Of a stretch of 64,000 bases of DNA, positions 6,981 through 64,000 are shown in pieces. Numbering within the stretch: position 1 is the stretch's first letter; the number at the start of each line of letters is the position of its first letter. A program made the position numbers and the translations under genes. Source of the stretch: Naegleria gruberi (lineage: Eukaryota); NCBI GenBank assembly GCA_000004985.1, contig GG738889.1; one strand, given 5' to 3'. The notes under the pieces are model-generated. The model saw only the letters and a list, made by a program, of their open reading frames with translations. It searched no databases and was not told where the DNA came from.

Positions 6981-8351
6981 TTATAATACCTTTCTAATCC
7001 TATTATTTTTAGTATCTGCAATGTAAACAGCACCATTTGACTGAACTGCAATTCCACATGGATCATTGAGAGATGACAAGATGGCAGGCCCATTATCTCC
7101 ATCAAACCCAGCTCCGCTTCCACCAGCAATTGTTGAAATAGTTTTGGTTGTTGGATTAATCTTCTTAATTCTTGCATTAGACTTGTCAGCAACATAGACA
7201 TCACCATTTGGACCAATAGCAATACCAAAAGGTGAATCCAAGCATGCAAACTCTGTTGTGGATGGGAATCCTGGACGACATCCACCAGCAATTGTAGTCA
7301 TGGTATAATAACCATTTTGAACTACGACTTGTCTCACCGTATTGATCAAATTTTCAATAAAGTAAATCTTTCCTCCACTTGCTGCAACACTTATTGGGGA
7401 TGAAATCTTGATATATTGAGCAAGTCCTTCATAAATTAAATTGGGTTGTATATAAGGAGAGTATGTGTAATCTGTTCCAGCAACAGTGTAAAGTTTTGAA
7501 GAGGTAATTTTTCTAATCTTTGAATTATTAGTATCTGCAAAGTAAACAGTATTTGAACTAGATTGATCCACAGCAACACTTGTTGGATTATTCAACGATG
7601 AAGCAATGGCTGATAATCCGTCATACAAAGGACTACCAGCATCACCATCCCCTGCAATGGTAGAAATCTTTCCATTTGAGATTGTAATCTTTCTAATTCT
7701 ATGATTTTGGCTATCAGCAATATAGACATTTCCAATCGAATCGAGAGCAACACCTGTTGGTGAGCTTAATTTAGCAGTTGTAGCAATGATATTGTCTCCG
7801 TTATAACCTTCCTCTTCTGTTCCAGCAATGGTTGAAAGCTTTCCAGTAAGTGCTGTGAATTTTCTAATTCTATGATTTTGAGTGTCTGCAATGTAAATAT
7901 TTCCACTAGAATCCACTGCAATACTTGTTGGAAATAGAAGGGAGGTAGAAGTTGCTGCTCCTGAATCTCCACCATATCCAGGCATACCATTACCCACAAT
8001 GGTTTTAATTTGAGGTAACAAAATGTTGGTCAAGAATTGAGAAACGCTCACTGAACTAGATGGATTAGCCAACCTGTTTATCAAACCCCATGCGGAAGAG
8101 GAATTCGACTTTTTGTAAAGGAATACTACTCCATTATCAACCATGTCTGGTGCGCCAACTAAGAGATAGTTACCATTGGATGAGAAGGACAATAAACCGC
8201 CAAAAGATTGTTCTTCAGAATCAATGGCAAATTCCAATGCACAACTATCATTTTCCACACATGAGAAAATTTCAACTCTATATTCATATCCAAGCACCAA
8301 TTGGTTGGATAACATGGCTGCAGAAGTAACGTTCGAGACTGAGACATCCAT
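6981..8351 (-). CDS. Secreted beta-propeller protein with one FG-GAP-like repeat (FGGLLSFSSNGNYLLVGAPDMVDNGVVFLYKK) followed by about six NHL repeats (YIAD.QNHRIRKI).
   Basis: 456-aa ORF with an ATG start (AAG GAG ATG GAT GTC). It contains repeated ...GNIYIADTQNHRIRKF/GNVYIADSQNHRIRKI/GAVYIADTKNNRIRKV blocks, which are the NHL consensus. A possible extra 5' exon encodes a signal peptide MKRLHIMVTVIMMLLLLTL (ATG at 8622..8620). It would join through a 58-nt GTAGTT...CACAG intron into the open upstream frame (...HNGSTSSIILDTPVQ...). That exon is inference only. Confidence 0.7.
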   Translation of the reverse strand: MDVSVSNVTSAAMLSNQLVLGYEYRVEIFSCVENDSCALEFAIDSEEQSFGGLLSFSSNGNYLLVGAPDMVDNGVVFLYKKSNSSSAWGLINRLANPSSSVSVSQFLTNILLPQIKTIVGNGMPGYGGDSGAATSTSLLFPTSIAVDSSGNIYIADTQNHRIRKFTALTGKLSTIAGTEEEGYNGDNIIATTAKLSSPTGVALDSIGNVYIADSQNHRIRKITISNGKISTIAGDGDAGSPLYDGLSAIASSLNNPTSVAVDQSSSNTVYFADTNNSKIRKITSSKLYTVAGTDYTYSPYIQPNLIYEGLAQYIKISSPISVAASGGKIYFIENLINTVRQVVVQNGYYTMTTIAGGCRPGFPSTTEFACLDSPFGIAIGPNGDVYVADKSNARIKKINPTTKTISTIAGGSGAGFDGDNGPAILSSLNDPCGIAVQSNGAVYIADTKNNRIRKVL

Positions 8352-9836
8352 CTCCTTATACCATTCAAAAGTGGATGTGGAATACTTGTAAAGGGATACT
8401 ATTGATTCTTGAATGGAGACTACTCGTTGATAGTCCTGAGAAAAGAGAGCTGAAATAACTTGGACTGGTGTATCTAATATAATTGATGAGGTGCTTCCAT
8501 TATGAACTGTGAGTGTATCAACGTCCCATGTGAGTGTGAGTTGTTGTTACTTGGGTGAAACTACCAAGAGTCAATAAGAGCAGCATCATGATCACTGTTA
8601 CCATAATATGTAATCGCTTCATTGCTGGTGTTTTGTTGTTGGTAGCAGCTACGAACAACAATGGATTAGTAGAGAGGCTAGAGATATGTGGTGTTGAGGA
8701 CATTTTTTTTAAAGATTTGAGAATGTCTAAGGGTACAGTAATAGTGGCGGGAAATATCCTGTTCCATTGATCAAGCCAACCTCTAGCTGTTTTGGGGCTA
8801 CTTGGAGCGTTCTCGTTTGTTAATAGAAGCTTCAAAAAAGTTGTTTGTTTGCGCTTATGTGCCTGGCAGTAGATTACATCCAAAACGAGACGAGCTGGTA
8901 CAAGCTCCTCTACTGACATAAATGACAATAAGGTTCAAATATGGATGATTGGTCATCTTTGCCATTAAGCACATACGCAATTATTGGTATTATTATTATT
9001 TAATATCAATCAGTATTAAATAATGAAAAATGTCAAAATATAGAGAGGATAGGATCAGATTGAAAATTAATCTTGTATTGAAATTTAAATATTGAATTTA
9101 AATTTTCAAGTCACTACACCGAGCCACTACAAACTGGGGTCCATATTTGAAGAGAAGGGCAACGCATGGAAAGCAGATAATTTCAGTTTGGCTTGCCGTC
9201 TATAGAGATGGTTGATGTTGATGTTGAATTGGTAGTAGTGGTGGAGGTTGAATTATCACTCGTTGAATTATCAATACTCTGCAGTAAATTGAATAGCAAG
9301 AGGGGAATATTGGATGATGAAATTTCTTCTGCCATGATAATTGATGATAGGATTGATGATGGTAATAAGTGTGTTCTCTTTTTCTCTCGGAGGTTAATAG
9401 TGTGGATGGATTTTACAGGATTGTTTGGTGATGAACCTTCAGAGATGTTGAAATTGTTTTTTTCTAACGGTTTGCTGTTTCATAAAGGTTTTTTGATTTT
9501 CCACATGTCAGCAAAACCCTTGATTTGCTAAATGACTTGTCAACCATTGTCGCAAGATTCTGAGCACTCAAATAGAATGGTTTCCTCATTCAAGTTCAAA
9601 AGTTCGCTCGTGTGGAAATTGTTTGTGTTAATTCCTTAGTCATATAAAACTTTAAATTTATTATTGAGACTAAACTATCCTACTATTTGATATTCGGTTG
9701 TATTGGTTGCTTGATCAAATTGCCACTATTCAATTCCATACTATTTTGAATTATCTAAATTCAATCTCCATTATTATTGAACTGGTCAAAACTGTTTCAT
9801 CATTTAAATATTTCAGATGAAACTTGTTTAAATAAT

Positions 9837-12800
9837 TTAATCGCTGTTATTCATGAATGGACCCAAAGCTTCATCATAGGCAAAGGAATAAATTTCTTGC
9901 ATGTCATCATTATCTAGGAATGGCTCAAAGAATGATTCATTTTGAAGAGATGGCTCTGCATTCATATTTGGAACAGGAGAAGCAAGTCCAAAACCTAGAT
10001 TATTTCCCAAATTCAAATTTAAACCGCTACCATTAATCATGTCTTGCCAGTTAATAGTAGGAGGATCTACCATTTGATTTTGAGTTCCCATATTGATAGG
10101 ATTATTACTCTTGTTATTATTCTTTGGATTGGCAATAACTGAGAAAAAGTCCTTGGTATTCTTAACATTTTGGAATTCGGAAAATTCTGAAAGATTGTAG
10201 TGACTAAATATATCATTTGAAAATCCACTCAAAGGATTAGTAGTGGTAGTGCTTCTATTGGATGTATTGGAAACGGTAGGAAGACTACTAGTTGTACTAC
10301 TAGGAGTGGTGCTATTGGTGCTATTAGAACTGCCAATACTGGTGGTTGGAAGAGAGCCAGATGAAAAGTTTTGAGTGAATTGTGGCAAGTCAGTTGGTTG
10401 TTTGCTTCCATCATTCAGAGAGTGAGAAGTGAATAAATTGAGAGCACTCATCAAGTGTTTTCTATTGATAATTTCCTCCATTTCTTGCATAAGTGTTTTG
10501 TGGAAGAGAGAAACTTTCTTATATCTCTTGGAGAGAATGTTCAAGGCTCTCAAATCTTTGGCCAAAATCTCATAATAGTCAACAGTACCAACTCGTGGTT
10601 CCTCACCATAGTTGACTGTTGGTACCATCATTACCTCTGGATTTTGACGTTCTCCAGCCTCAATAGACTTGACGATGTGAAGGTGAACTTTGGCAGCTGC
10701 TGCAACGTGAGCAACAATTGGTGGTGGCACAAAGAGGAATAACTCATTCTCTGTACCAAATGTAATTTTGAGAGCAGACTCTTCAATCAATTCCTTTCCA
10801 CGATTGACAGCACTCAAAATTCCTAATCTAATGCCATGGAATACAATAGTTGATCCCATATCGAAAATCTTCAAGTTTCTTTCACTACCAGTCTTTGTGA
10901 GATGCATTCTTACGATGTGTAAAAGTGTCTCTACAACCTTGATCATTGTGGAATAGTTATTTGGTGTCAAATCTTGCTCGAGTAATGTTCTCCATTCGGT
11001 AGGTATTTGAATACCAAGTGTCTTTTCGAATACATTTGGCCAATCCTTCAAGAGAGAAAGCACACCACTATCATTTGATGAACAGACTTTACAAAAACTT
11101 CTAATCTTTTTGAGATTTTTCTGATAGATTGTCAAATTTTGTTGTTCTTCTTCACTGAGCTCATCAAGGTAAAAGTTAACAGACTGTAAATAGTATTTGG
11201 CAGTCTTTAGTCTTCCACATCCTGACTCGTAGATGCACATGAATGCATAACAACAACTCACGTAAAAATTTGAATGTTCATCAAAGAATTTGGATAGAGC
11301 TTCTCTAGCTTTTTTCATTGTTTCTTCAGCTAAATCTGAAAGACCAGTTCTTTGCTCGCAAATGGCCTTAATAGCTAAAAACATGGCATATACTTCCTTC
11401 TTGTTTGGCATGATATCATTTCCTTCAGTAATAATTTCTTCATCGTCATCCTTTGAGTTATTTGACTTAGAAGAGAGATATCCTTCAAAGTCTTTTCTTT
11501 CAATTACTGGCATACCATTACCAAAAATGTTAAAGTACAAATCTAGTACCTTTCTCTTGTCAAGATGTTTTTCTGGTGTTTTGGCAATATTTCCATAGGG
11601 TGTTTCAGATGATAAAATGTTTGCCAACAACTTGGTTGTGCTTGAATGAAGAGGTTTCACTCCAGCATTAGTAGTATTGAAGATACACATGTTCATTTCG
11701 GAAATTCTTCTAACATCAACATCTGCCATTTGAGGTGCTGTATTTGTTGAAATTCTGTCCAATTCTGGAGGGTTCATTGAAACTCCTTCCCATGATGGTA
11801 GAGATGAAGCAATGTCCCTATTGCTTTGGTCACCTTCAGTAGATGTTTTTGGTTTGGCTGTTCTTCCCTTTTTTCTTGGGATTTTATATTCACAATTTAC
11901 TCCTCTCGAAACACATTTTGAACAGGCTGGTAATTTCCTATCCTATAATTTCAAAATTCAATATTATAATCCAAATATGATAAGAGATATCAAAAGTTAG
12001 TACTCCAAATAATTGTTTAAATACTAATACGTACACATCTTTTGTGTAGACGACGGCATTGTACACAAGCTATTGGATGGAATAAACCTCCACTCTCATC
12101 TCCTTCCATTTGCATCTCCTCATCTTCATCAGATTCTGGAGCAACTGGTTTTTTCTTCTTCTTTTTCTTTGATTCTTCTACGTGTTGTCCATTACTTCCA
12201 CTACTACTCGAAAGGGATGATGAGGATGTTGGTGATGTCATTGGTAGGTTGTTGTTGCTGCTACTTGTAATATGATTATTAATATTATTCAGCAAGGTTG
12301 AAATCTTGTCCGAAGATGCTGATTTTGATATTTGTTGATTGGCATTTGCTGATGTTGTGTTGTTTGTTCCTGCTGATGAATTACCCAAGAGTGAAGAAGA
12401 ACTTGTTGATGGTGCTAATAAACCTCCCTTGTTCTGGTTTGGCAATCCAAGTTGTTCCAAATAGTAAGAGAGTGAATCTGCCAGAGGTGTTGATGCTGGT
12501 GGAAGGGGTGAGACAAATGCTGATGGATTGGTGCTATTGCTATTTGAGGAGGAACTTCCTGGAGTATTTACATTGGCTGACATTGCATTCAGGAGGTTGT
12601 TATTGCTATTGGTATTGTTGTTATTGCCAGAGAAGAGTCGTTGATAGTAGTGTGCCATTTCGTCGGAAGCCATCGTAGATGTGGATCCATCCAATAAATT
12701 AAATAGAGAAGGTTGATTGGTGGCACCACCTTGTTGCTTTTCGAATTGGTGTAGGAAGTGAAGAGCATTGGAGGTGTTGGAGGATTGGAAGGCAGATTGT

Positions 12801-12937
12801 GGCCCTTGGTATCGTAAATTATAAAGGTTGTTATTGCTCTCGCTATTATTCTGTTGTTGTTGTTGTGAATGTTGTTGGTGGTTGTTGTTATTGCCATTGC
12901 TACCACCTTGGCCAGGGTAGGTTGTTTGTTTGGGCAT
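9837..12937 (-). CDS. GAL4-type Zn(II)2Cys6 binuclear-cluster transcription factor, two exons: complement(12035..12937) and complement(9837..11942). About 1002 aa, with a long C-terminal regulatory region.
   Basis: Exon 1 (ATG at 12937) encodes a poly-N/Q/S-rich N-terminus, a K7 basic run, an acidic patch, and then HPIACVQCRRLHKRC. It ends at a GTACGT donor. The intron is 92 nt (12034..11943), contains a TACTAAC branch-point match, and ends TATAG. Exon 2 continues in frame with DRKLPACSKCVSRGVNCEYKIPRKKGR... This completes the motif C-X2-C-X6-C-X6-C-X2-C-X6-C. Exon 2 runs 55 codons into the 646-aa ORF 9837..11777. Confidence 0.75.
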
Positions 12938-15604: not shown

Positions 15605-17429
15605 ATGGAAGATAATATTATACACGAGGCTATTGAAACATTGAACCTTTTTGAACGTACTGATAGTTTAATTGAAGAATTCTTCAATAATAACAGCAAG
15701 GATGACAAGGAGAATGAAACTACAACAAGTATTGTCGATGAAAAGAAGGTGGCGGAAGGAGATGGAAGGATGGATTTGATGATTGAAGACCAATTAAAAT
15801 ACGACTTGCTGGTAGAAATTACAAAGGAAAGAGAACATGAACATACAAGAGTTCCTTCATCACCAGAAGATAAGGAACATGATGCTAATTTGTTTATTCA
15901 TGGATTTGAGGAGAAGGTTCAAAAATTGTTTGATGACATTGTCGATTGTATTGAGGATGAGAATCATCAACATCATTACATTAACAATCAAAAGACAATT
16001 ACTCCAGAAAAGATGAGACTCTTCATGAAAAAGTCCAAGATTTTGGTAGTAGATGGAACTGTGGACGAAATTATGAGATTACATGACACCAGTAAGGATG
16101 GTCACTTGTCATTTGATGAATTCAAGCAATATATGATTGCTCAAGAATTACAATTGAGAAAATTGTTTAATCAAATTGATTTGGATAACTCTGGAGACAT
16201 TGGTATCGGAGAATTGAAGGCAATTTGTAAGAAACTCAAGTTGAAATTGAGTGACAAAGAAATGAAACAAATTATGAAAATGATAGATAAGAACAAGTCA
16301 AATTCCATCTCTTATCAGGGTAAGTAATTTCTGATCGGTGTGTAAATTTACCCAAATATGTAAATCTTAATTGTTGGATTACTGAACTTTCGAATATTTT
16401 AAAATTTTATCAGAATGGTATGATTTTATGCATAGAAAGAAGTTAATCCCTATTCACAATAAGGATGTATCATTGAAAAGTGCTTTCAATATTTTAAAGA
16501 ATGAATGTGAGGCAGATACAGAACATCCAAAGTGGAAATACTTCCTTGCAGGTGGTATGGCAGCTGCTGTTGCAAGAACAGCTGTAGCTCCACTGGAACG
16601 TTTGAGATGTCTCTACCAAATTCAAACTCAAATCACCAAACATAAGAATGGCCAATTTTTGGAATTTCAATCAATCAGGGAGGGATTGAGAGAAATTGGT
16701 AAAGATGGTTACAAAGGACTTTTCAAAGGAAATGGTATGAATGTCATGAAAGCAATTCCAGAGATTGCAGCCAGATCTTACTTTTATGAAATGTTCAAGA
16801 GATGGATCATTTATTACAATGATCACGTACCTGATGCTGTTTCTATTCAAATGCATCAACGTTTTTGTGCCAGTGCATTTGCTGCTATGGCTGCCCAAGC
16901 TCTTATTTATCCATTGGATTCAATCAAGATGCATCTCATGACAAGAGAAAATGTAAATATTAGAGGAATTTTTAGAGATTCCTTAAAAGCTGATGGTTGG
17001 AGACAATTCTACAGAGGATGCACACCAGCAATGATTAGAGTGGGTCTTGACACTGGACTCTACGAAACGTTCAAGAAAATTCACTACACTTATTACAGCA
17101 GTCAAGATATCAATCATGACTATCCATCAATGCCAGCTGTCTTTATGATGGCAACAGCTGCTTGTACAGTTAACCAAGTACTAACTTATCCACTCCAACT
17201 TGTAAGAACTCGTTTGCAAATGCAAAACGTTTTGGAAAGATCTCACATTACTGACATTCACTATAATGGCATGTCAGATGCCTTTAAACAAATTTGGAAA
17301 ACTGAAGGAATTAGAGGATTGTACAGAGGCAGTGTAGTTACATTCTTAAAGAGTGTTCCTACAGTTTCTACAACCTTATTTGCTTTCGAATTTGCCAAGA
17401 GAGAATTTGGTATTTATTCTCAAGTGTAA
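15605..17429 (+). CDS. Calcium-binding mitochondrial carrier (SCaMC/Sal1-like ATP-Mg/Pi carrier architecture). Two exons, 15605..16319 and 16414..17429, about 577 aa.
   Basis: Exon 1 has EF-hand loops DTSKDGHLSFDE, DLDNSGDIGIGE and DKNKSNSISYQE. It ends CAG G followed by GTAAGT. The intron is 94 nt (16320..16413) with a TTACTGAAC branch-like site and a TTTTATCAG acceptor. Exon 2 starts AA TGG TAT GAT TTT ATG CAT..., in frame. It carries three carrier signatures: PLERLR, PLDSIK and PLQLVRTR. Confidence 0.7.
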
Positions 17430-17603: not shown

Positions 17604-19359
17604 TCATTTTCTTTCCACAAGTCTATACTTGTTAGAACTATCTGGTGACATATTCGGTCTCAATTTGTTTAGTTTGAGAACTTGGTCTGGTCTCTCCAAT
17701 TCAATCTTGTATTTTCTCAATAACGCAATGACAAATGTTTTTTGTTCCATCATCGAAAATTGATTACCCTAATCCAAATTGTGAATTAAATGTTAAAAGT
17801 GAATTCTTTTAAAACTTACAATGCATTTACGAGCACCTGAACCAAATGGAATCCAAGCAAAGGAAGGATATCTCTTTTCCAAGAATCTCTCTGGTTTAAA
17901 TTCCTCAGCATCTTCTCCCCAGACTTCTGGATGCCTGTGAACGCTGTACACACTCAAATTGACAGCAAATCCTTTTGGTATCTTGTAGCCATCAATGACA
18001 GTGGTAGAATTCAAGATTCTTAAAGGAAGTTGAGGAACTGGAGGGAATAATCTGAGATTTTCTTTCAAGACAGCATCTAAATATTTCATATCTTTCACCT
18101 TTTCATAATTATTGAATTGAGTTTCATCTTGATCCAATGGGAATGTTTCAATAATTTCTTGATATAGCTTTTCTTGAACTCTTGGATTGGTTGCCAATGA
18201 ATAAAAGATGAATGCCAAAGCAGCAGCCGTAGTCTCTATATTTAAGTAAATAAACAAAATAATTGAAAAGAAACAACATACCAGTTCCTGCAAGGAAAAA
18301 GACTGAGGTATTATTCTTGATATCTTGAATAGACATTCCATTTCCTTCCTCATCAACAGAGTCAACCATCATTTTGAGAAGGGTATTATTTTGATAATCC
18401 TTCTTATTTTTACAATCTTCAATTAATTCATCGAGGAATGATTGGAAAGCTGCAATATTATTATTCATCTTGATATTTGATTCTATATTCCAATCAGCAA
18501 AATATTTACCAGCAAGGAATCGAACTGGATTGGCAATATTATCCATAACATATTGGTAGGATTTGAGAGCTTTGGCAACCTTTTCAGATTCATTTGTCTT
18601 GGTATGTAATGGAGACAATGCACTAATGGTATTGAAATTGACTCCAAAAACTGTCATGCCCAAAACATCTAGAGCTAATCTTCCAGTCATGTCCGAAGGA
18701 TCAACAATGAGTTCCTTTCCACTCTGGTTCAATTCAGAAAAAACTTGTACAGCTTTGAATGCATTCTTAACAAATGCTCCCATAAATCTTGAAATGTCTT
18801 TAAAGGCAGGATTTACAACAGTTCTTTGCCTTTTCCATTCATCTCCATTTGCAAACACTAAGTTAAGTCCCATAAATTTGTGAATATCTGGTGAGAATAA
18901 TCTGGTATTTTCCTTTTCAATTTCTCTCCAATTCATTGTCAATACTCTTGCAGCACTAGGAGTTGAAAAGACAACATATGGGAATGACATTAAATATCCC
19001 AATAATGGTTGATAATTATGCTTGAGAACAGCTTGTTTGTGAACAACCACAGCAGGATGTTCAGGAGTCATGAAATTATAAGCAATACTCTCCACAGTAT
19101 TCCAAAACAACAACTCCTTAATAGGCTTTGGTTGAGGTGTTTTAAAAATTGGTTTAGCCTCCTTATTGTCCTCACTCGGAATCCCAGTATTTTCTCCACC
19201 AATCTTCTCATCATTATCATTAATATCATGTTGTTCCTCCTCAACTTTTACAACTTTAATCTTCCACTTGTTAGCTTCCTCCTTCCGAGCAATATAAAAA
19301 TAAGTACCAACAACAAGGCACACCACAAGACCCAAAACACTCAAGACACTCGACCACAT
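17604..19359 (-). CDS. Cytochrome P450 (microsomal, N-terminal membrane anchor). Three exons: complement(18282..19359), complement(17820..18235), complement(17604..17768). About 552 aa.
   Basis: Splicing joins I-helix FFLAGT/ETTAAALAF across a 46-nt GTATGT...ATATAG intron (18281..18236). The heme loop FGSGARKCI/GNQFSMMEQ is joined across a 51-nt GTAAGT...GATTAG intron (17819..17769). Other marks: ExxR/PERF-like region (KENLRLFPPVP; PERF) and ATG at 19359 (MWSSVLSVLGLVVCLVV). Without the introns the two track ORFs (18148..19359 and 17793..18365) end in unrelated peptides. Confidence 0.75.
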
Positions 19360-21210: not shown

Positions 21211-22852
21211 ATGCCAAGCACGAGTATTGATATTGTAGCCTTCTCGATTCTTATCAATCCAACACTCACCAATACAACAGCAGACTCAATTTCGAATAGT
21301 AGCTCTAGGCTTTCGTTAAGATTCTCCTCATCAGGTTCTTCATCAAGTGGATCAAATCCTAATCTCAGAGCAAGTACTTCACAAGGCTCACTCATGGAAC
21401 TCTCCATCTCCAAGAAGCCTATAGAATCACAATTAGAATGGATAGGTTGGTTAAAGAAGGCTTTCCTCGGTTTTGTTGAGAAGAAAGTTCACAAATCAAT
21501 GGAAATGGAGTTGAAAATATTATTCCTTGAGCACTTTTTGAATCCACTAACAGAGAAGGTAGCCTGGAAAACGAGAAGTGAAGTGCTTTCCATGTTGAAT
21601 TTATTTTGTGAACTTGTATTGGAATGGATGGTACCTTTCGAATGGATTGAAATTGAAAAGACGAAAGATGTCAAGAACTTGAATTATTATACACAACAAT
21701 TAGCCTTGATTTTAGAGAAGGCTAACTTGTTTGAACATGAATATTTGAAAGATTTCATTCACAATCAAGCTAAACTGACAAGTTCTTCTTCCATGCAAGA
21801 AGAAATAGAAGAATCCGAAACTATTGATGAGGTGAAACTAATCTGCTCAATGTTTTTCCTGGAACTCTCTGATTGGTTCAATGAATTTGAGTTCACAAAT
21901 AGAAAAAAGATTAACAAGTGGTTTGCTAAAGGACTCCAATCTGACATTATTCCAAAATATGTAATCAAGATTTACAAGACGAAACGAGATAAGTTATCAA
22001 AGGCCAATGAAGAATTCATATTCAAAGAAGATGATTTAAATCAAAAGCATGTGATTGCATCTGACTGGAATTATACAAATTTCATTGGGAAAGAACATTC
22101 CACAGAGTGGACCCTTACTTATTCGAGATGTCCTGAAACTTCCATGTGGATTTCATCGGTTGACCGTTCGAGTGACAAGTTGGGATTGAAAACTCTCAAA
22201 TCTGTAGGATATTTAGACACCTCAGTTGCAAAGATTACGAAAGCAACTTGTAGTGATGCTCATTTCCATCAATTTTTCAAAGAAGCAAGGTTTCATGATT
22301 ATTCCTCGATTGATAAATCTCATTCCCAGAAGAAATATCCATTAGTGTTCATGTCTAATATCTTTAAGTTTGGCCCAATGTTTAGCACTAGAGAACTCCA
22401 TTTGGTTTACTCAACTTTGGCCAAGTTTCAATCAGACAAGATGGTTGAGAGTTGCATTTTGTTTAAATCTCGTGATTATGTTTATGTAAGTAAGGATGTT
22501 TTAAAAGCTAACACAAATGTAATAGGGTTTGAATGAGGAAAATAAGAAACTGATCAAAGTGCCAATGATTGGGGCAAGATTGTATTATATGGTCGATAAG
22601 AATCGTGTAAGATATGTCGAATACAGAACTCTCAACTCTGGAGGTCTGTTAAATTCAAATCTTGTATTGTACAACAAAATGGCTGCAAAAAAAACCGTGG
22701 ATGATATTCTTTCAGCTATTCAAAAATCAGAAACTGACTCTAACCAATACAAGAATGGAATTAATCCAAGTAATGATAATTTATCTAGACTGTTGCATAA
22801 CTATTGTAAAGAGTATTGCAACATTGATTTAGAAAATACTGAAATATCATAA
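21211..22852 (+). CDS. Hypothetical protein with a Ser-rich N-terminus and a possible START/Bet-v1-like lipid-binding C-terminal half. Two exons, 21211..22485 and 22526..22852.
   Basis: The 441-aa ORF and the following 107-aa ORF overlap at 22529-22536 in different frames. A 40-nt intron (22486..22525; GTAAGTAAG...GCTAAC...TAATAG) joins ...SRDYVY to GLNEENKKLIKV... in frame. The domain call is weak. Confidence 0.5.
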
Positions 22853-41073: not shown

Positions 41074-41394
41074 TACCAATAAAAAAATATTGGCAAACGT
41101 TGAATATTCAATTCCAGGCACTCGAGATTAATTTTTGACTCTATCCCCAATATTTGAGTTTTACATTTTTCATCATAGGTGGAATGATATGTACTCTAAC
41201 TAAGAATCAATTTTCAAAGTTTCATCTCTTAAAACCACCGAGAAAATAATCAAAGATTATTTTTTTATTTTCCTACATGTAATTCTTCAATTTAATTTAA
41301 GGAATGGATTGATATTCAATTTATATGAAAAAACTATTTCATGCATTAACAAAGATGAGACTATTTGTGGTGAACTTTCGATTGTTTAAAAAAA

Positions 41395-42906
41395 ATGTGG
41401 AACATTCTTTGCATTGCTATTTTGGTGGTTCTTTGTTCTGCTGGTTACTTTTATTTTAATATGAACAATACTCAACAGTATAATGACTTGGACATTTATG
41501 TTCCCATAGAATACATTCTTTTCTGTATATCGGAACAATACCAGATCGCCAACACCTCCTTATTGGAACCTCTCATCCGAAAAAACTTCAATAAGGATAA
41601 TATTAAGACACTATTGAATATGCTCACCAAACATAACAAAATAGATGTCGTAAATAACTTGGTGAACACCTTTAGAATAAGAGCTGATATTGCCGAGAAT
41701 ATTGTTGACTTTATTGGCCATCAAGCGAAGCAAGCATTTCCATTTTCAAAAGAGAGAATGGACGAGTTTCTATGGAGAAAAGCCAAAATACGAGATGCAC
41801 TATCAAGTATTGAAGATATTACAACTGATCACGAGCATGTTAACAATAGTGACACGTTTATTTACAAAGTTAATGATGGAAATTGGTACATTTTCAATAA
41901 TCTTTCAAAATTTAAGAAAGCAATTCATCATATACCTTTAGTATTGGGATCTGCCCAGAGATGTAGAATGTCTTTTGAAGTTAAGGGTCAGCCTAGAACA
42001 GGAAAAACACTTTGTTCGAAATATGTGCTTCCCTATTTTTGTGCCACTTCAATTAATCGAAAGAGGGAACAAGAAGGCCTTACAAAACTGTCAAGAGCTC
42101 CTGTTTTCTATTTAATGATGGTAAAGAATGGAAATCCAATCAGGGATTTGTATCACGAACTGAAGAAACATTTAAGTGAAATAATTAACTACCATCCAGA
42201 ACATGAATTTAAAGAAAATGGTGAGCTTATTCTGGAAGTACGAACGTATATTCACAGATTTTTCGATGTGTATTCTGACTCTCATATGTTTATTGTTCTA
42301 GATGAGATTCAATTAATTGATTCAAAATATTTGGACTCTCTGAGAACAATTATCAAGTCAAGAGACTTTCTCAAGTGTACATTCATTCTAACAGGCTCTA
42401 CCCAGTCAATGTTCAACTTGACAATGGAAAAGACATGTAGAAATGGATTGAGTTTCTTTGACAATACAATTGTTTATGATATTCCCTTTTCCAATTCACC
42501 AAAACGTGTTGAAGAATCTCTTAAAACATTGTTTCATAAGGGTGCTTTGAATAGAAGTTCTATAACAGCAGAAGAAACCCTTATGATACAATCACATTGC
42601 ACAGATCTAAACGTTGCGTATGTAAGCCAGATACTGAAATATGAGCACGATTTAAAACTTTCTTTCACTAAATCTTTGAATAAGTTAGTAGAAGAAATAT
42701 TGAAAATATACGACCGAGATGTTGTAATTGATTCAGCCACAGTCTTAGCTATACTAAATGGTGATCTTGAATCTTTGGAAGATACATGCTTTGTTACTAA
42801 AGTTAAAGGACAATTACTTTTAACAGACAAGCTTTTCACCATATTTCTTAACAACAATTTTATGGTTGAGAATCAAGGAAAAGCAGTTATTAAGAAATGC
42901 TTCTGA
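41395..42906 (+). CDS. Membrane-anchored P-loop NTPase (AAA-like), 503 aa.
   Basis: ATG start, with an N-terminal TM segment (ILCIAILVVLCSAGYFYF). Walker A: GQPRTGKT. Walker B-like: MFIVLDEIQLI. Confidence 0.55.
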   Translation: MWNILCIAILVVLCSAGYFYFNMNNTQQYNDLDIYVPIEYILFCISEQYQIANTSLLEPLIRKNFNKDNIKTLLNMLTKHNKIDVVNNLVNTFRIRADIAENIVDFIGHQAKQAFPFSKERMDEFLWRKAKIRDALSSIEDITTDHEHVNNSDTFIYKVNDGNWYIFNNLSKFKKAIHHIPLVLGSAQRCRMSFEVKGQPRTGKTLCSKYVLPYFCATSINRKREQEGLTKLSRAPVFYLMMVKNGNPIRDLYHELKKHLSEIINYHPEHEFKENGELILEVRTYIHRFFDVYSDSHMFIVLDEIQLIDSKYLDSLRTIIKSRDFLKCTFILTGSTQSMFNLTMEKTCRNGLSFFDNTIVYDIPFSNSPKRVEESLKTLFHKGALNRSSITAEETLMIQSHCTDLNVAYVSQILKYEHDLKLSFTKSLNKLVEEILKIYDRDVVIDSATVLAILNGDLESLEDTCFVTKVKGQLLLTDKLFTIFLNNNFMVENQGKAVIKKCF

Positions 42907-48360: not shown

Positions 48361-50013
48361 ATGCAAGAAACACAATCACTCGCCGATTACATCAAATCTT
48401 TTGGTACATTTCAATTGATTTTCCTCTCTTTCATTTCTTTGATCATTCTCTACTTGATAATTTATACATGCCGATTTGTGCACTTGTATTTAAAGTATAG
48501 GCACATTCCTGGCTTTGTTTCCTTTCTACCACCCTTCTTGGGATCACTCGTGGCCGGAGAAATGTTTGTTGGTTATGAGTATTCATGTATTTTGAAGGCT
48601 TTTACGAGTAATCCTGATAGTACAATTGTAAAGATTCAAAAAGGATTGGATCTTTATTTTGCTGTGGCTAAGGATCAAGAAATAATCAAGGAATTACTCA
48701 TTAGAAAGTATAAAACTATGGCCAAGAATGAAAAGTTGTTGGAACCATTGGGATTATTTGGACATAATATGTTAACTGCCGATTCAACCAATCCTATTTG
48801 GAAGAAACATAGAGTATTGGCTAATCCAATCTTTTCAAATCATGCTCACTTGAAAAATGTATTCAGAGTCACAATGGAAGAACTTTCCAACATGATTAAA
48901 TATTGGAAAGATAATTATGATTCAGATGCTGAAGGAAATATTAGAAATGTCAATACTACACAAGAACTCAAGTCAATTACACTCACTGTTATTAACAGAG
49001 TTGCTTTTGGTTATGATATTGAGATTTTTAATAAGAGTACAAAACACAGAGATGAAATTCATCAATCGACAACTGACTTGTTGAGTGGAATCATGTACAA
49101 ATTTGTTTTCCCTACATGGTTCTTTGAATATTTACCGTTTGGAATTTTTGGCAAATTCAAGAAGGCAAAGAATAATTTCCGTAAGATTGCCATGGATATG
49201 ATTAGTAAAAAGACAGCTGAAATTCAAAAGAATAATGAAATTATGGAAGATGAAGATTTATTGAGCTTGTTAATGAAGAGTAGTGCTTCTCAAAACTTAT
49301 CAGATGAGGAAAAATTGAGTGATGATGAATTGGTCAGTGCTATGTTTATTATATTCTTTGCTGGATTTGAGACAAGTTCAACCTCTTTGAATTTCATGTT
49401 GAGGCTGTTGGCCATTCATCCAGATGTTCAGGAGAAATTAATTGAAGAAATTGATGCAACAGTAGAGTCAGCCGAATCTATGAAATTTGAAGATCTTACC
49501 GAAAGACTTCCTCTATTGAACTCATTCATTAAGGAGTCATTCAGGGTCAAACCAGCAGTAGGTGCCGTTTCCAGAACTGTTGCCAAGAAGGGAGGAGAAA
49601 CTATTGGAGGAATGCACTTTAATGAGGGAGACCAAATTGTTTTCAACATTATGGTTCATCACAAACTCTCCCACAATAATGCTATGGATACTTTCAAATT
49701 TGACAGATTTTATCAACCATCAGATAAGCAAGACGATTCTTCATCAGAAAGCTCAGATAAGGGAACAATGGGAAATTTAACACTCGAGTTTGCAAAGGAT
49801 GATTTGGCCTCCTTCTCACTTGGTCCAAGAGATTGTCTCGGAAGAAGAATGGCCTTGATAGAAGTTAAACAGATTCTCGTCTATTTATTGAAAAAGTACA
49901 GAATTACAGTGCCAGAACATTTGAAGGAGCAACAGGCTAAAATTAAGGAAACTTACATCATGACAAGATGTACCTTTGAACCTTTTATTCTTAATTTTGA
50001 AAAGAGATGTTAA
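48361..50013 (+). CDS. Cytochrome P450, intronless, 550 aa, with an N-terminal membrane anchor.
   Basis: ATG at 48361. Marks: TM anchor LIFLSFISLIILYLIIYTC, I-helix FFAGFETSS, K-helix ESFR, heme loop FSLGPRDCLGRRMALIEVK. It ends in TAA. Confidence 0.85.
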   Translation: MQETQSLADYIKSFGTFQLIFLSFISLIILYLIIYTCRFVHLYLKYRHIPGFVSFLPPFLGSLVAGEMFVGYEYSCILKAFTSNPDSTIVKIQKGLDLYFAVAKDQEIIKELLIRKYKTMAKNEKLLEPLGLFGHNMLTADSTNPIWKKHRVLANPIFSNHAHLKNVFRVTMEELSNMIKYWKDNYDSDAEGNIRNVNTTQELKSITLTVINRVAFGYDIEIFNKSTKHRDEIHQSTTDLLSGIMYKFVFPTWFFEYLPFGIFGKFKKAKNNFRKIAMDMISKKTAEIQKNNEIMEDEDLLSLLMKSSASQNLSDEEKLSDDELVSAMFIIFFAGFETSSTSLNFMLRLLAIHPDVQEKLIEEIDATVESAESMKFEDLTERLPLLNSFIKESFRVKPAVGAVSRTVAKKGGETIGGMHFNEGDQIVFNIMVHHKLSHNNAMDTFKFDRFYQPSDKQDDSSSESSDKGTMGNLTLEFAKDDLASFSLGPRDCLGRRMALIEVKQILVYLLKKYRITVPEHLKEQQAKIKETYIMTRCTFEPFILNFEKRC

Positions 50014-60088: not shown

Positions 60089-62870
60089 NNNNNNNNNNNN
60101 NNNNNNNNNNNNNNNNNNNNNNNNNNNNNNNNNNNNNNNNNNNNNNNNNNNNNNNNNNNNNNNNNNNNNNNNNNNNNNNNNNNNNNNNNNNNNNNNNNNN
60201 NNNNNNNNNNNNNNNNNNNNNNNNNNNNNNNNNNNNNNNNNNNNNNNNNNNNNNNNNNNNNNNNNNNNNNNNNNNNNNNNNNNNNNNNNNNNNNNNNNNN
60301 NNNNNNNNNNNNNNNNNNNNNNNNNNNNNNNNNNNNNNNNNNNNNNNNNNNNNNNNNNNNNNNNNNNNNNNNNNNNNNNNNNNNNNNNNNNNNNNNNNNN
60401 NNNNNNNNNNNNNNNNNNNNNNNNNNNNNNNNNNNNNNNNNNNNNNNNNNNNNNNNNNNNNNNNNNNNNNNNNNNNNNNNNNNNNNNNNNNNNNNNNNNN
60501 NNNNNNNNNNNNNNNNNNNNNNNNNNNNNNNNNNNNNNNNNNNNNNNNNNNNNNNNNNNNNNNNNNNNNNNNNNNNNNNNNNNNNNNNNNNNNNNNNNNN
60601 NNNNNNNNNNNNNNNNNNNNNNNNNNNNNNNNNNNNNNNNNNNNNNNNNNNNNNNNNNNNNNNNNNNNNNNNNNNNNNNNNNNNNNNNNNNNNNNNNNNN
60701 NNNNNNNNNNNNNNNNNNNNNNNNNNNNNNNNNNNNNNNNNNNNNNNNNNNNNNNNNNNNNNNNNNNNNNNNNNNNNNNNNNNNNNNNNNNNNNNNNNNN
60801 NNNNNNNNNNNNNNNNNNNNNNNNNNNNNNNNNNNNNNNNNNNNNNNNNNNNNNNNNNNNNNNNNNNNNNNNNNNNNNNNNNNNNNNNNNNNNNNNNNNN
60901 NNNNNNNNNNNNNNNNNNNNNNNNNNNNNNNNNNNNNNNNNNNNNNNNNNNNNNNNNNNNNNNNNNNNNNNNNNNNNNNNNNNNNNNNNNNNNNNNNNNN
61001 NNNNNNNNNNNNNNNNNNNNNNNNNNNNNNNNNNNNNNNNNNNNNNNNNNNNNNNNNNNNNNNNNNNNNNNNNNNNNNNNNNNNNNNNNNNNNNNNNNNN
61101 NNNNNNNNNNNNNNNNNNNNNNNNNNNNNNNNNNNNNNNNNNNNNNNNNNNNNNNNNNNNNNNNNNNNNNNNNNNNNNNNNNNNNNNNNNNNNNNNNNNN
61201 NNNNNNNNNNNNNNNNNNNNNNNNNNNNNNNNNNNNNNNNNNNNNNNNNNNNNNNNNNNNNNNNNNNNNNNNNNNNNNNNNNNNNNNNNNNNNNNNNNNN
61301 NNNNNNNNNNNNNNNNNNNNNNNNNNNNNNNNNNNNNNNNNNNNNNNNNNNNNNNNNNNNNNNNNNNNNNNNNNNNNNNNNNNNNNNNNNNNNNNNNNNN
61401 NNNNNNNNNNNNNNNNNNNNNNNNNNNNNNNNNNNNNNNNNNNNNNNNNNNNNNNNNNNNNNNNNNNNNNNNNNNNNNNNNNNNNNNNNNNNNNNNNNNN
61501 NNNNNNNNNNNNNNNNNNNNNNNNNNNNNNNNNNNNNNNNNNNNNNNNNNNNNNNNNNNNNNNNNNNNNNNNNNNNNNNNNNNNNNNNNNNNNNNNNNNN
61601 NNNNNNNNNNNNNNNNNNNNNNNNNNNNNNNNNNNNNNNNNNNNNNNNNNNNNNNNNNNNNNNNNNNNNNNNNNNNNNNNNNNNNNNNNNNNNNNNNNNN
61701 NNNNNNNNNNNNNNNNNNNNNNNNNNNNNNNNNNNNNNNNNNNNNNNNNNNNNNNNNNNNNNNNNNNNNNNNNNNNNNNNNNNNNNNNNNNNNNNNNNNN
61801 NNNNNNNNNNNNNNNNNNNNNNNNNNNNNNNNNNNNNNNNNNNNNNNNNNNNNNNNNNNNNNNNNNNNNNNNNNNNNNNNNNNNNNNNNNNNNNNNNNNN
61901 NNNNNNNNNNNNNNNNNNNNNNNNNNNNNNNNNNNNNNNNNNNNNNNNNNNNNNNNNNNNNNNNNNNNNNNNNNNNNNNNNNNNNNNNNNNNNNNNNNNN
62001 NNNNNNNNNNNNNNNNNNNNNNNNNNNNNNNNNNNNNNNNNNNNNNNNNNNNNNNNNNNNNNNNNNNNNNNNNNNNNNNNNNNNNNNNNNNNNNNNNNNN
62101 NNNNNNNNNNNNNNNNNNNNNNNNNNNNNNNNNNNNNNNNNNNNNNNNNNNNNNNNNNNNNNNNNNNNNNNNNNNNNNNNNNNNNNNNNNNNNNNNNNNN
62201 NNNNNNNNNNNNNNNNNNNNNNNNNNNNNNNNNNNNNNNNNNNNNNNNNNNNNNNNNNNNNNNNNNNNNNNNNNNNNNNNNNNNNNNNNNNNNNNNNNNN
62301 NNNNNNNNNNNNNNNNNNNNNNNNNNNNNNNNNNNNNNNNNNNNNNNNNNNNNNNNNNNNNNNNNNNNNNNNNNNNNNNNNNNNNNNNNNNNNNNNNNNN
62401 NNNNNNNNNNNNNNNNNNNNNNNNNNNNNNNNNNNNNNNNNNNNNNNNNNNNNNNNNNNNNNNNNNNNNNNNNNNNNNNNNNNNNNNNNNNNNNNNNNNN
62501 NNNNNNNNNNNNNNNNNNNNNNNNNNNNNNNNNNNNNNNNNNNNNNNNNNNNNNNNNNNNNNNNNNNNNNNNNNNNNNNNNNNNNNNNNNNNNNNNNNNN
62601 NNNNNNNNNNNNNNNNNNNNNNNNNNNNNNNNNNNNNNNNNNNNNNNNNNNNNNNNNNNNNNNNNNNNNNNNNNNNNNNNNNNNNNNNNNNNNNNNNNNN
62701 NNNNNNNNNNNNNNNNNNNNNNNNNNNNNNNNNNNNNNNNNNNNNNNNNNNNNNNNNNNNNNNNNNNNNNNNNNNNNNNNNNNNNNNNNNNNNNNNNNNN
62801 NNNNNNNNNNNNNNNNNNNNNNNNNNNNNNNNNNNNNNNNNNNNNNNNNNNNNNNNNNNNNNNNNNNNNN
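60089..62870. other. Assembly gap (2782 N) between the last gene and the subtelomere.
   Basis: Run of N characters. Confidence 1.
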
Positions 62871-63566: not shown

Positions 63567-64000
63567 TTGGGTTTGGGTTTGGGTTTGGGTTTGGGTTTGG
63601 GTTTGGGTTTGGGTTTGGGTTTGGGTTTGGGTTTGGGTTTGGGTTTGGGTTTGGGTTTGGGTTTGGGTTTGGGTTTGGGTTTGGGTTTGGGTTTGGGTTT
63701 GGGTTTGGGTTTGGGTTTGGGTTTGGGTTTGGGTTTGGGTTTGGGTTTGGGTTTGGGTTTGGGTTTGGGTTTGGGTTTGGGTTTGGGTTTGGGTTTGGGT
63801 TTGGGTTTGGGTTTGGGTTTGGGTTTGGGTTTGGGTTTGGGTTTGGGTTTGGGTTTGGGTTTGGGTTTGGGTTTGGGTTTGGGTTTGGGTTTGGGTTTGG
63901 GTTTGGGTTGGGTTTGGGTTTGGGTTTGGGTTTGGGTTTGGGTTTGGGTTTGGGTTTGGGTTTGGGTTTGGGTTTGGGTTTGGGTTTGGGTTTGGGTTGG
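63567..64000 (+). repeat. Telomeric repeat array (TTTGGG)n of about 72 units. The G-rich strand runs 5'->3' toward the window end.
   Basis: Perfect GGGTTT hexamer tandem array from 63567 to the window end. One 5-mer variant (GGGTT) lies at about 63905. It is preceded by a degenerate transition and sits at a scaffold end after the gap. Confidence 0.85.

What the first reader, a model, noticed from the sequence alone, without database searches (positions are those of the whole stretch)
9837..12937. Zn2Cys6 transcription factor split by a yeast-style intron inside the zinc cluster; ORF-based annotation would break it
The six-Cys GAL4-type motif is interrupted exactly between Cys3 and Cys4 by a 92-nt intron with a GTACGT donor, a TACTAAC branch point and a TATAG acceptor. 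Exon 1 contributes 300 aa of poly-N/Q/S low complexity plus a KKKKKKK run before the DNA-binding domain, which is unusually far from the N-terminus for this family. A Zn2Cys6 regulator about 5 kb from a P450 near a telomere recalls pathway-specific regulators of fungal subtelomeric gene clusters.
Basis: partly seen in the sequence, partly recalled or inferred. Interest (0 to 1): 0.5.

Follow-up and report, generated by a model that had tools for sequence, protein, structure and literature searches.

The report
Known Naegleria zinc-cluster regulator gene
But the DNA is from the amoeba Naegleria gruberi, not a yeast, and this exact 1002-residue protein is already in the public annotation.

Summary
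Observation confirmed. On the minus strand, exon 1 (12937-12035), a 92-nt GTACGT...TATAG intron (12034-11943) and exon 2 (11942-9837) give a 1002-aa protein. Its CX2CX6CX6CX2CX6C motif is split after Cys3. Of 80 in-frame, stop-free GT/GC-AG pairs, only this one restores the motif. Pfam Zn_clus passes only on the spliced product (39.3 bits, cutoff 21).

Eight window ORFs are exact Naegleria gruberi NEG-M proteins. The spliced model is exactly EFC40981.1 / XP_002673725.1 / UniProt D2VQN7 (NAEGRDRAFT_80888), so it is already annotated with this intron. It is not fungal. TACTAAC is not enriched in the window and is absent from eight related introns. Fungal_trans fails its cutoff. The P450 lies 4.8 kb away behind two unrelated genes, and no P450 lies within 10 kb of the N. 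lovaniensis ortholog.

Side observation: introns inside the zinc-cluster coding segment sit at seven different positions across family members, and they differ even between positional orthologs.

The parts
12035..12937 (-). Exon 1 (301 codons). It encodes the start MPKQ..., an S/N/Q-rich low-complexity N-terminal region, a K7 run (aa 257-263, 12169-12149) and the first half of the zinc cluster up to Cys3.
   Evidence: An N-terminal 'MPK' is shared with P0001, P0011, P0012 and the L010 gene.
11943..12034 (-). Spliceosomal intron, 92 nt, phase 0. Donor GTACGT (12034-12029), TACTAAC (12002-11996, 53 nt upstream of the 3' splice site), acceptor TTATAG (ends at 11943).
   Evidence: It is the only GT-AG pair that restores the motif, and it is identical to the reference gene model.
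9837..11942 (-). Exon 2 (701 codons plus TAA at 9839-9837). It encodes the second half of the zinc cluster, a basic linker, the middle domain, a low-complexity tail and an acidic C-terminal motif.
11868..12070 (-). Zn2Cys6 binuclear-cluster DNA-binding domain, aa 290-326, coded by 12070-12035 and 11942-11868 with the intron in between.
   Evidence: Pfam Zn_clus 39.3 bits. A PROSITE-style pattern matches at aa 290-318. A family profile hits the DNA-binding domains of Put3, Lac9, Gal4, Cep3, Hap1 and Leu3 in the PDB.
10410..11654 (-). Conserved all-alpha middle domain, aa 398-812 (structured from about aa 424 to 809). It is Cep3-like, resembling the middle homology region.
9840..9938 (-). Conserved acidic/hydrophobic C-terminal motif ESFFEPFLDNDDMQEIYSF..., aa 970-1002. 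Inferred to be an activation region.
   Evidence: The consensus 'FEPFLD' is conserved in A1, and the C-termini of P0001-P0006 share it. The function is inferred only.

Best explanation
[not shown]
Confidence: 0.85

Rival explanations
1. One reading: a yeast or fungal Zn2Cys6 pathway-specific regulator with a yeast-type intron, controlling a subtelomeric gene cluster that includes the P450 5 kb away.
For: The Zn2Cys6 domain is real. A P450 lies 4.8 kb upstream. The scaffold ends in telomere repeats about 50 kb away. A paralog (N. lovaniensis C9374_003211, and its relative on Logan contig L007) sits divergently next to a P450, about 0.6-0.9 kb apart.
Against: The organism is Naegleria gruberi. 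Two unrelated genes separate the regulator from the P450. The N. lovaniensis positional ortholog has no P450 within 10 kb. The paralog-linked P450 is only 21-33% identical to either window P450. TACTAAC is not enriched in the window and is absent from related introns.
Confidence: 0.03
2. The intron is not removed, or the locus is a decaying pseudogene. In that case the two ORFs (306 aa and 646 aa) are separate or non-functional products.
For: The N-terminal 280 aa are low complexity.
Against: Both half-domains are under strong conservation across 13 homologues, and they assemble into a full-length Zn_clus match only when spliced. The donor is canonical GTACGT and the acceptor YAG. Exon 2 has no stop over 701 codons, and its middle domain is 66-69% identical to its orthologs. 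The reference annotation uses this intron.
Confidence: 0.03
3. Origin rival, not exclusive of the best explanation: the heterolobosean family was acquired from a fungus by horizontal transfer, rather than inherited from an early eukaryotic ancestor.
For: Both the zinc cluster and a Cep3-like middle domain are present, which is the fungal architecture. The family is seen only in Naegleria and Willaertia among named hits.
Against: The middle domain is too diverged for the Pfam fungal model. Its profile finds only 234 clusters, and none of the sampled ones is fungal, so there is no close fungal donor. No phylogeny was made.
Confidence: 0.3

Closest known systems
Naegleria gruberi NAEGRDRAFT_80888 (EFC40981.1, XP_002673725.1, UniProt D2VQN7, 'Zn(2)-C6 fungal-type domain-containing protein')
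   Same: Identical over all 1002 residues, so the same exons and the same intron.
   Different: Nothing differs. The database entry is only an automatic annotation, and I found no paper in the held library linking Naegleria with Zn2Cys6 terms.
Naegleria lovaniensis C9374_003541 (P0002), the positional ortholog
   Same: 64% identity over the zinc cluster and middle domain, a shared divergent upstream neighbour, and a K-rich run before the zinc cluster.
   Different: Its zinc-cluster intron lies 9 nt further downstream (after CDKK), is 62 nt long and shows no significant sequence similarity to the window intron. It has a second 131-nt intron in the middle domain that N. gruberi lacks.
Fungal Gal4/Put3/Ppr1/Hap1/Leu3-type Zn2Cys6 regulators (Pfam PF00172)
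   Same: Six-cysteine spacing, basic residues between Cys2 and Cys3, a Pro before Cys4, a Pfam score above the cutoff, and profile hits to their solved DNA-binding domains.
   Different: The host is not a fungus. The domain starts at aa 290 rather than near the N-terminus. Family members range from position 10 to 863, and 8 of 51 start at position 200 or later. No recognisable coiled coil follows the linker, and Fungal_trans is not detected by sequence.
Saccharomyces / Kluyveromyces Cep3 (CBF3 subunit B; PDB 6F07, 6P7V)
   Different: 9% sequence identity, rmsd 6.5-7.9 A, and Foldseek is not significant. Cep3 is a kinetochore protein, and nothing suggests that role here.
Near-intron pairs, 'intron sliding' and differential intron loss (a concept from the intron-evolution literature, recalled from memory)
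   Same: Orthologous genes carry introns a few nucleotides apart while the protein aligns without gaps.
   Different: The offsets here (9 and 16 nt) are larger than the 1-2 nt slides usually accepted. One offset is not a multiple of three, so simple boundary drift cannot explain it.

Membership tests
Zn(2)-Cys(6) binuclear cluster DNA-binding domain (Pfam PF00172 / PROSITE PS00463-type) | Six cysteines spaced C-X2-C-X6-C-X5-12-C-X2-C-X6-8-C | tested here: met
   CVQCRRLHKRCDRKLPACSKCVSRGVNC at aa 291-318 of the spliced product. Unique among 80 splice alternatives.
Zn(2)-Cys(6) binuclear cluster DNA-binding domain (Pfam PF00172 / PROSITE PS00463-type) | Profile score above Pfam's gathering threshold | tested here: met
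   39.3 bits against a cutoff of 21, E 7.2e-10, profile positions 2-38 of 39. 13 of 14 family members also pass.
Zn(2)-Cys(6) binuclear cluster DNA-binding domain (Pfam PF00172 / PROSITE PS00463-type) | Small residue before Cys1, basic residues after Cys2 and three positions further on (pattern written from memory) | tested here: met
   The regular expression [GASTPV]C..C[RKHSTACW]..[RKHQ]..C... matches aa 290-318.
Zn(2)-Cys(6) binuclear cluster DNA-binding domain (Pfam PF00172 / PROSITE PS00463-type) | Binds two zinc ions and DNA (CGG-type half-sites) | not testable with these tools
   Inferred only from homology to Put3, Gal4 and Hap1 DNA-binding domains.
Gal4-like full-length fungal regulators (zinc cluster plus middle homology region, Pfam PF04082 Fungal_trans) | Fungal_trans profile above the gathering threshold | tested here: not met
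   13.5 bits against a cutoff of 23 on the exon-2 product. No hit on the full protein. 0 of 14 members at E<=1.
Gal4-like full-length fungal regulators (zinc cluster plus middle homology region, Pfam PF04082 Fungal_trans) | Helical middle domain with the fold seen in Cep3 | tested here: inconclusive
Gal4-like full-length fungal regulators (zinc cluster plus middle homology region, Pfam PF04082 Fungal_trans) | Found in fungi | tested here: not met
   The host is Naegleria gruberi (Heterolobosea). The family's named members are all from Naegleria or Willaertia.
Budding-yeast-type introns (GTATGT / TACTAAC / YAG) | A TACTAAC branch box as a general feature of the genome's introns | tested here: not met
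   It is present once in this intron, but the window holds 8 copies against 4.5 expected. It is absent from the other N. gruberi intron in the window and from eight related introns.
Pathway-specific regulator inside a (sub)telomeric biosynthetic gene cluster | Contiguous co-functional biosynthetic genes next to the regulator, conserved in relatives | tested here: not met
   The neighbours are an NHL-repeat protein, a 238-aa unknown, an EF-hand mitochondrial carrier and then one P450. The N. lovaniensis ortholog has no P450 within 10 kb.

The most novel reading that the evidence does not exclude
The roughly 90-nt zinc-cluster coding segment of this heterolobosean family is a hot spot of intron turnover. 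I count positions in nucleotides from the first base of the Cys1 codon. Introns lie at 33 (window), 42 (N. lovaniensis positional ortholog), 14 (N. fowleri FDP41_008351), 30 (its N. lovaniensis positional ortholog C9374_013766), 34 and 87 (C9374_008216), and 17 plus 42 around a 25-nt micro-exon (metagenome locus L010). Five other family genes have no intron in this segment. At each of the four loci tested (W, L001, L003, L009), only one GT-AG pair restores the motif. If this reflects recent intron relocation or repeated gain, rather than differential loss from a multi-intron ancestor or gene conversion between paralogs, then Naegleria would offer a natural system for studying how spliceosomal introns move.
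Probability: 0.35. Interest if true: 0.55.

Novelty: already known. Interest (0 to 1): 0.22.

Why it matters
The finding as stated adds nothing to public knowledge, because the gene, its intron and its domain label are already in GenBank and UniProt. Its main use is as a caution. A correct reading of a motif led to a wrong guess of organism ('yeast') and of biology ('fungal cluster regulator').

Two things could interest specialists.
- A regulator class usually taught as fungus-specific exists as a sizeable family in a discoban amoeba, with a zinc cluster and apparently a Cep3-like middle domain. This bears on where Gal4-type regulators came from.
- The intron position within the zinc cluster differs between close orthologs, which may point to active intron turnover in Naegleria.

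Both are leads, not results.

Tried and rejected
1. Transcript proof: I searched JGI metagenome and metatranscriptome contigs for the 25-nt exon-exon junction and found nothing, which is uninformative.
2. More family loci from metagenomes via the search for related loci: 64 pattern matches, none confirmed.
3. Homology of the N. gruberi and N. lovaniensis introns (both start GTACGT and share a block of about 15 nt): the local alignment score is reached by 108 of 2000 and 22 of 500 shuffles, and unrelated introns score as high. No pair among the eight introns stands out, so there is no evidence for a sliding 'same' intron or an introner-like family.
4. TACTAAC as a genome-wide signal: not enriched.
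5. Fungal_trans by sequence: fails on the protein and on all 14 family members. The PDB sequence-profile search hits only the DNA-binding domain.
6. Foldseek confirmation of the Cep3 match: not significant. The afdb50 library was unavailable.
7. P450 linkage: the P450 next to a paralog is not orthologous to either window P450.
8. Literature: no paper in the held library combines Naegleria with Zn2Cys6, Zn_clus, binuclear cluster or fungal-specific transcription factor. The de Mendoza 2013 paper is not held.
9. N. gruberi genomic loci are not in the contig index, so the N. gruberi paralogs could not be examined for introns.
10. The first homology search did not return the query's own database entry. 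That entry was found only by exact look-up.

Full report
**1. The observation**

Read on the minus strand, the window shows ...CAC AAA AGA TGT | GTACGTATTAG...GGAGTACTAACTTTTG...GAAATTATAG | GAT AGG AAA TTA CCA GCC TGT TCA AAA TGT....
- The six-frame ORF list has a 306-aa ORF (12937-12017) and a 646-aa ORF (11777-9837) in different frames.
- Removing 12034-11943 (92 nt) joins 301 codons to 701 codons. The product is 1002 aa, with CVQCRRLHKRC|DRKLPACSKCVSRGVNC at aa 291-318. The intron is in phase 0 immediately after Cys3.
- I enumerated every GT/GC donor in the last 150 nt of exon 1 against every AG acceptor. 80 pairs are in frame and stop-free. Only 12034/11943 restores a Zn2Cys6 spacing, and it also has the best donor.
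- Pfam Zn_clus scores 39.3 bits (cutoff 21; E 7e-10; profile positions 2-38 of 39) on the spliced product. It finds nothing on exon 1 alone and scores 20.1 bits on exon 2 alone.

**2. The organism**

The window is 32% G+C and ends in (GGGTTT)n at 63569-63993. The homology search returned only Naegleria lovaniensis, N. gruberi, N. fowleri, Willaertia magna and unnamed environmental proteins.

Exact look-ups showed that eight other window ORFs are identical to N. gruberi NEG-M proteins on one 348,446-bp scaffold (EFC40980, 40903-40907, 40911, 40983). TTTGGG is the candidate N. gruberi telomere repeat reported by Fulneckova et al. 2013 (PMC3622300). So the sequence comes from a heterolobosean amoeba, not a fungus.

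**3. Already annotated**

The spliced 1002-aa sequence is, residue for residue, EFC40981.1 / XP_002673725.1 / UniRef100_D2VQN7, locus NAEGRDRAFT_80888. UniProt names it 'Zn(2)-C6 fungal-type domain-containing protein'. The reference annotation therefore already uses this intron.

The remark that ORF-based calling breaks such genes is true of relatives:
- Environmental gene calls P0007 and P0010 start just after the intron position.
- The N. lovaniensis model C9374_003211 lacks its zinc cluster. There the cause is a late start codon, not an intron, because the domain is in frame and contiguous upstream.

**4. What the protein is**

*Zinc cluster.* Fourteen family members align with an almost invariant FHPIACVQCRRLHKRCDKKLPSCSKCVSRGVxCEY. 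A profile of the family hits the solved DNA-binding domains of Put3, Lac9, Gal4, Cep3, Hap1, Leu3 and Ppr1, and nothing else in the PDB.

*Middle domain.* A conserved region of about 390 residues (aa 424-809) follows.
- Pfam Fungal_trans reaches only 13.5 bits (cutoff 23) on the exon-2 product, and 0 of 14 members match it.
- A profile of this region searched against 1.84 billion representative proteins finds only 234 at E<=1e-3. Eight of ten sampled distant hits carry Zn_clus and none carries Fungal_trans. All nine that have names are from Naegleria or Willaertia. N. gruberi alone has at least six paralogs.
- An AlphaFold2 model of the region (pLDDT 82, pTM 0.81) is all-alpha.
- Foldseek does not confirm this. 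It gives no hit at E<=0.001, and Cep3 is rank 26 with a TM-score of 0.43, although that is the highest query-normalised TM-score listed.
- I take the Cep3-like fold as likely but not settled.

*C-terminus.* The family shares an acidic/hydrophobic motif (FEPFLD...ELY), which I infer to be an activation region.

*Position of the zinc cluster.* It starts at aa 290 here. Across family representatives the start ranges from 10 to 863, so a long N-terminal extension is not unusual in this family.

**5. Mechanism**

Shown: the exon structure, the complete zinc-cluster motif after splicing, conservation, and orthology to N. lovaniensis C9374_003541. That ortholog is 64% identical, and the divergent upstream gene EFC40903 matches the 270-aa gene next to it.

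Inferred from the Gal4, Put3 and Cep3 precedents:
- six cysteines hold two zinc ions;
- the cluster recognises short CGG-type sites;
- the middle domain mediates dimerisation or regulation;
- the acidic tail acts as an activation region;
- the lysine runs act as nuclear localisation signals.

Targets are unknown.

**6. The cluster and telomere idea**

The gene's neighbours are an NHL-repeat protein, a 238-aa unknown, an EF-hand mitochondrial carrier, then a P450 4.8 kb upstream of the gene's start, and a DUF4116 protein. The N. lovaniensis ortholog locus has no P450 within 10 kb.

One paralog (C9374_003211, and its relative on Logan contig L007) is divergently paired with a P450. That P450 is only 21-33% identical to the two window P450s. 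L006 and L007 also come from closely related species, so shared gene order there is expected anyway. The telomere repeats are about 50 kb from the gene, beyond a 2.8-kb assembly gap. I see no support for a fungal-style cluster.

**7. The 'yeast-style' intron**

- GTACGT...YAG is an ordinary U2-type intron.
- TACTAAC occurs 8 times in the window against 4.5 expected, and 8 of 100 shuffles reach 8.
- The other N. gruberi intron I could define in the window (EFC40904, 16319-16412, GTAAGT...TCAG) has TTACTGAAC instead.
- None of eight related introns has TACTAAC.
- The heptamer may well be the branch site, but it says nothing about yeast.

**8. Side observation: intron positions**

I mapped annotated proteins exactly onto their loci. 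Positions are counted in nucleotides from the first base of the Cys1 codon.

| Gene (locus) | Intron position(s) in the zinc-cluster segment |
|---|---|
| N. gruberi 80888 (window) | 33 |
| N. lovaniensis C9374_003541, positional ortholog (L001) | 42 |
| N. fowleri FDP41_008351 (L003) | 14 |
| N. lovaniensis C9374_013766, positional ortholog of FDP41_008351 (L009) | 30 |
| N. lovaniensis C9374_008216 (L004) | 34 and 87 |
| Environmental gene (L010) | 17 and 42, around a 25-nt micro-exon |
| L002, L005, L006, L007, L008 | none |

- L003 and L009 share the same Cullin, DUF4291 and CoA-transferase neighbours.
- For the window, L001, L003 and L009, only one GT-AG pair restores the motif, so these differences are not annotation noise.
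- No pair of introns is more similar than shuffled controls.
- Possible causes are repeated gain, loss followed by regain, differential loss from a multi-intron ancestor, or gene conversion among paralogs. I could not distinguish them.

**9. Verdict**

The gene is already annotated. The fungal, yeast and cluster interpretation is wrong. Interest in the finding itself is low. The non-fungal Gal4-like family and the intron-position scatter are modest leads.

Noticed in passing
window 11943-12034; L001:10760-10821; L003:3272-3325; L009:2806-2868; L004:2161-2255 and 2309-2413; L010: about 580-660: Introns inside the zinc-cluster coding segment sit at seven different positions in six family genes, and five other family genes have none there. 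Two pairs of positional orthologs differ by 9 nt and 16 nt. The introns show no sequence similarity to one another.
   Followed up: partly
L010: about 560-680 (ENA ERZ27315067 contig k141_482206): A family member has two 37-nt introns flanking a 25-nt micro-exon (A CTT CAC AAA CGT TGT GAC AAG AAG) inside the zinc cluster. The prokaryote-style gene call (P0007) starts only after the second intron and so lacks half the domain.
   Followed up: partly
window 63569-63993 (and the N run 60089-62870): The scaffold ends in (GGGTTT)n with the G-rich strand running 5'->3' toward the end. This matches the candidate N. gruberi telomere repeat TTTGGG proposed in PMC3622300. A 2,782-N assembly gap lies just inside it.
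   Followed up: partly
L006:2734-3000 (N. lovaniensis PYSW02000017.1): The annotated model C9374_003211 (P0004, 537 aa) starts at an internal Met. The zinc cluster (GFHPISCIHCRRLHKKCDKMLPSCSKCISRGVKCEY) is in frame and contiguous upstream, so the public model is truncated and carries no Zn_clus label.
   Followed up: yes
L006:452-4614 and L007:750-4989: This paralog is divergently paired with a P450 gene, with about 0.6-0.9 kb between them, in N. lovaniensis and in a related Naegleria assembly (Logan SRR29240419). The P450 is not orthologous to the window's P450s.
   Followed up: partly
window 15605-17429 (+): EFC40904 (576 aa) is an EF-hand plus mitochondrial-carrier protein, split by a 94-nt intron (16319-16412, GTAAGT...TTACTGAAC...TCAG). 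This looks like a calcium-regulated carrier of the SCaMC/Aralar type.
   Followed up: partly
window 48361-50013 (+) and about 17697-19359 (-): There are two diverged cytochrome P450 genes in the window. For the first, the annotated protein (EFC40912, 483 aa) starts 67 codons inside the 550-aa ORF. The second appears to contain a short intron near 18237-18285.
   Followed up: no
window 6981-8703 (-), 21211-22536 (+), 41377-42906 (+): ENA and Logan environmental assemblies hold proteins 95-99% identical to window genes (P0015, P0018, P0022). So close relatives of strain NEG-M are present in public metagenome or run assemblies.
   Followed up: no
tool behaviour: The word-indexed homology search did not return the query's own database entry (P0030, 100% identical). 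It was found only by exact look-up, so absence from that search is not evidence that a protein is unannotated.
   Followed up: yes
L002:758-3493 (JGI metagenome 3300002220): An intronless gene 62% identical to the query region (aa 278-802: zinc cluster plus middle domain) lies on a 4.3-kb environmental contig with flanking ORFs. It is probably genomic DNA of another Naegleria-like amoeba.
   Followed up: partly
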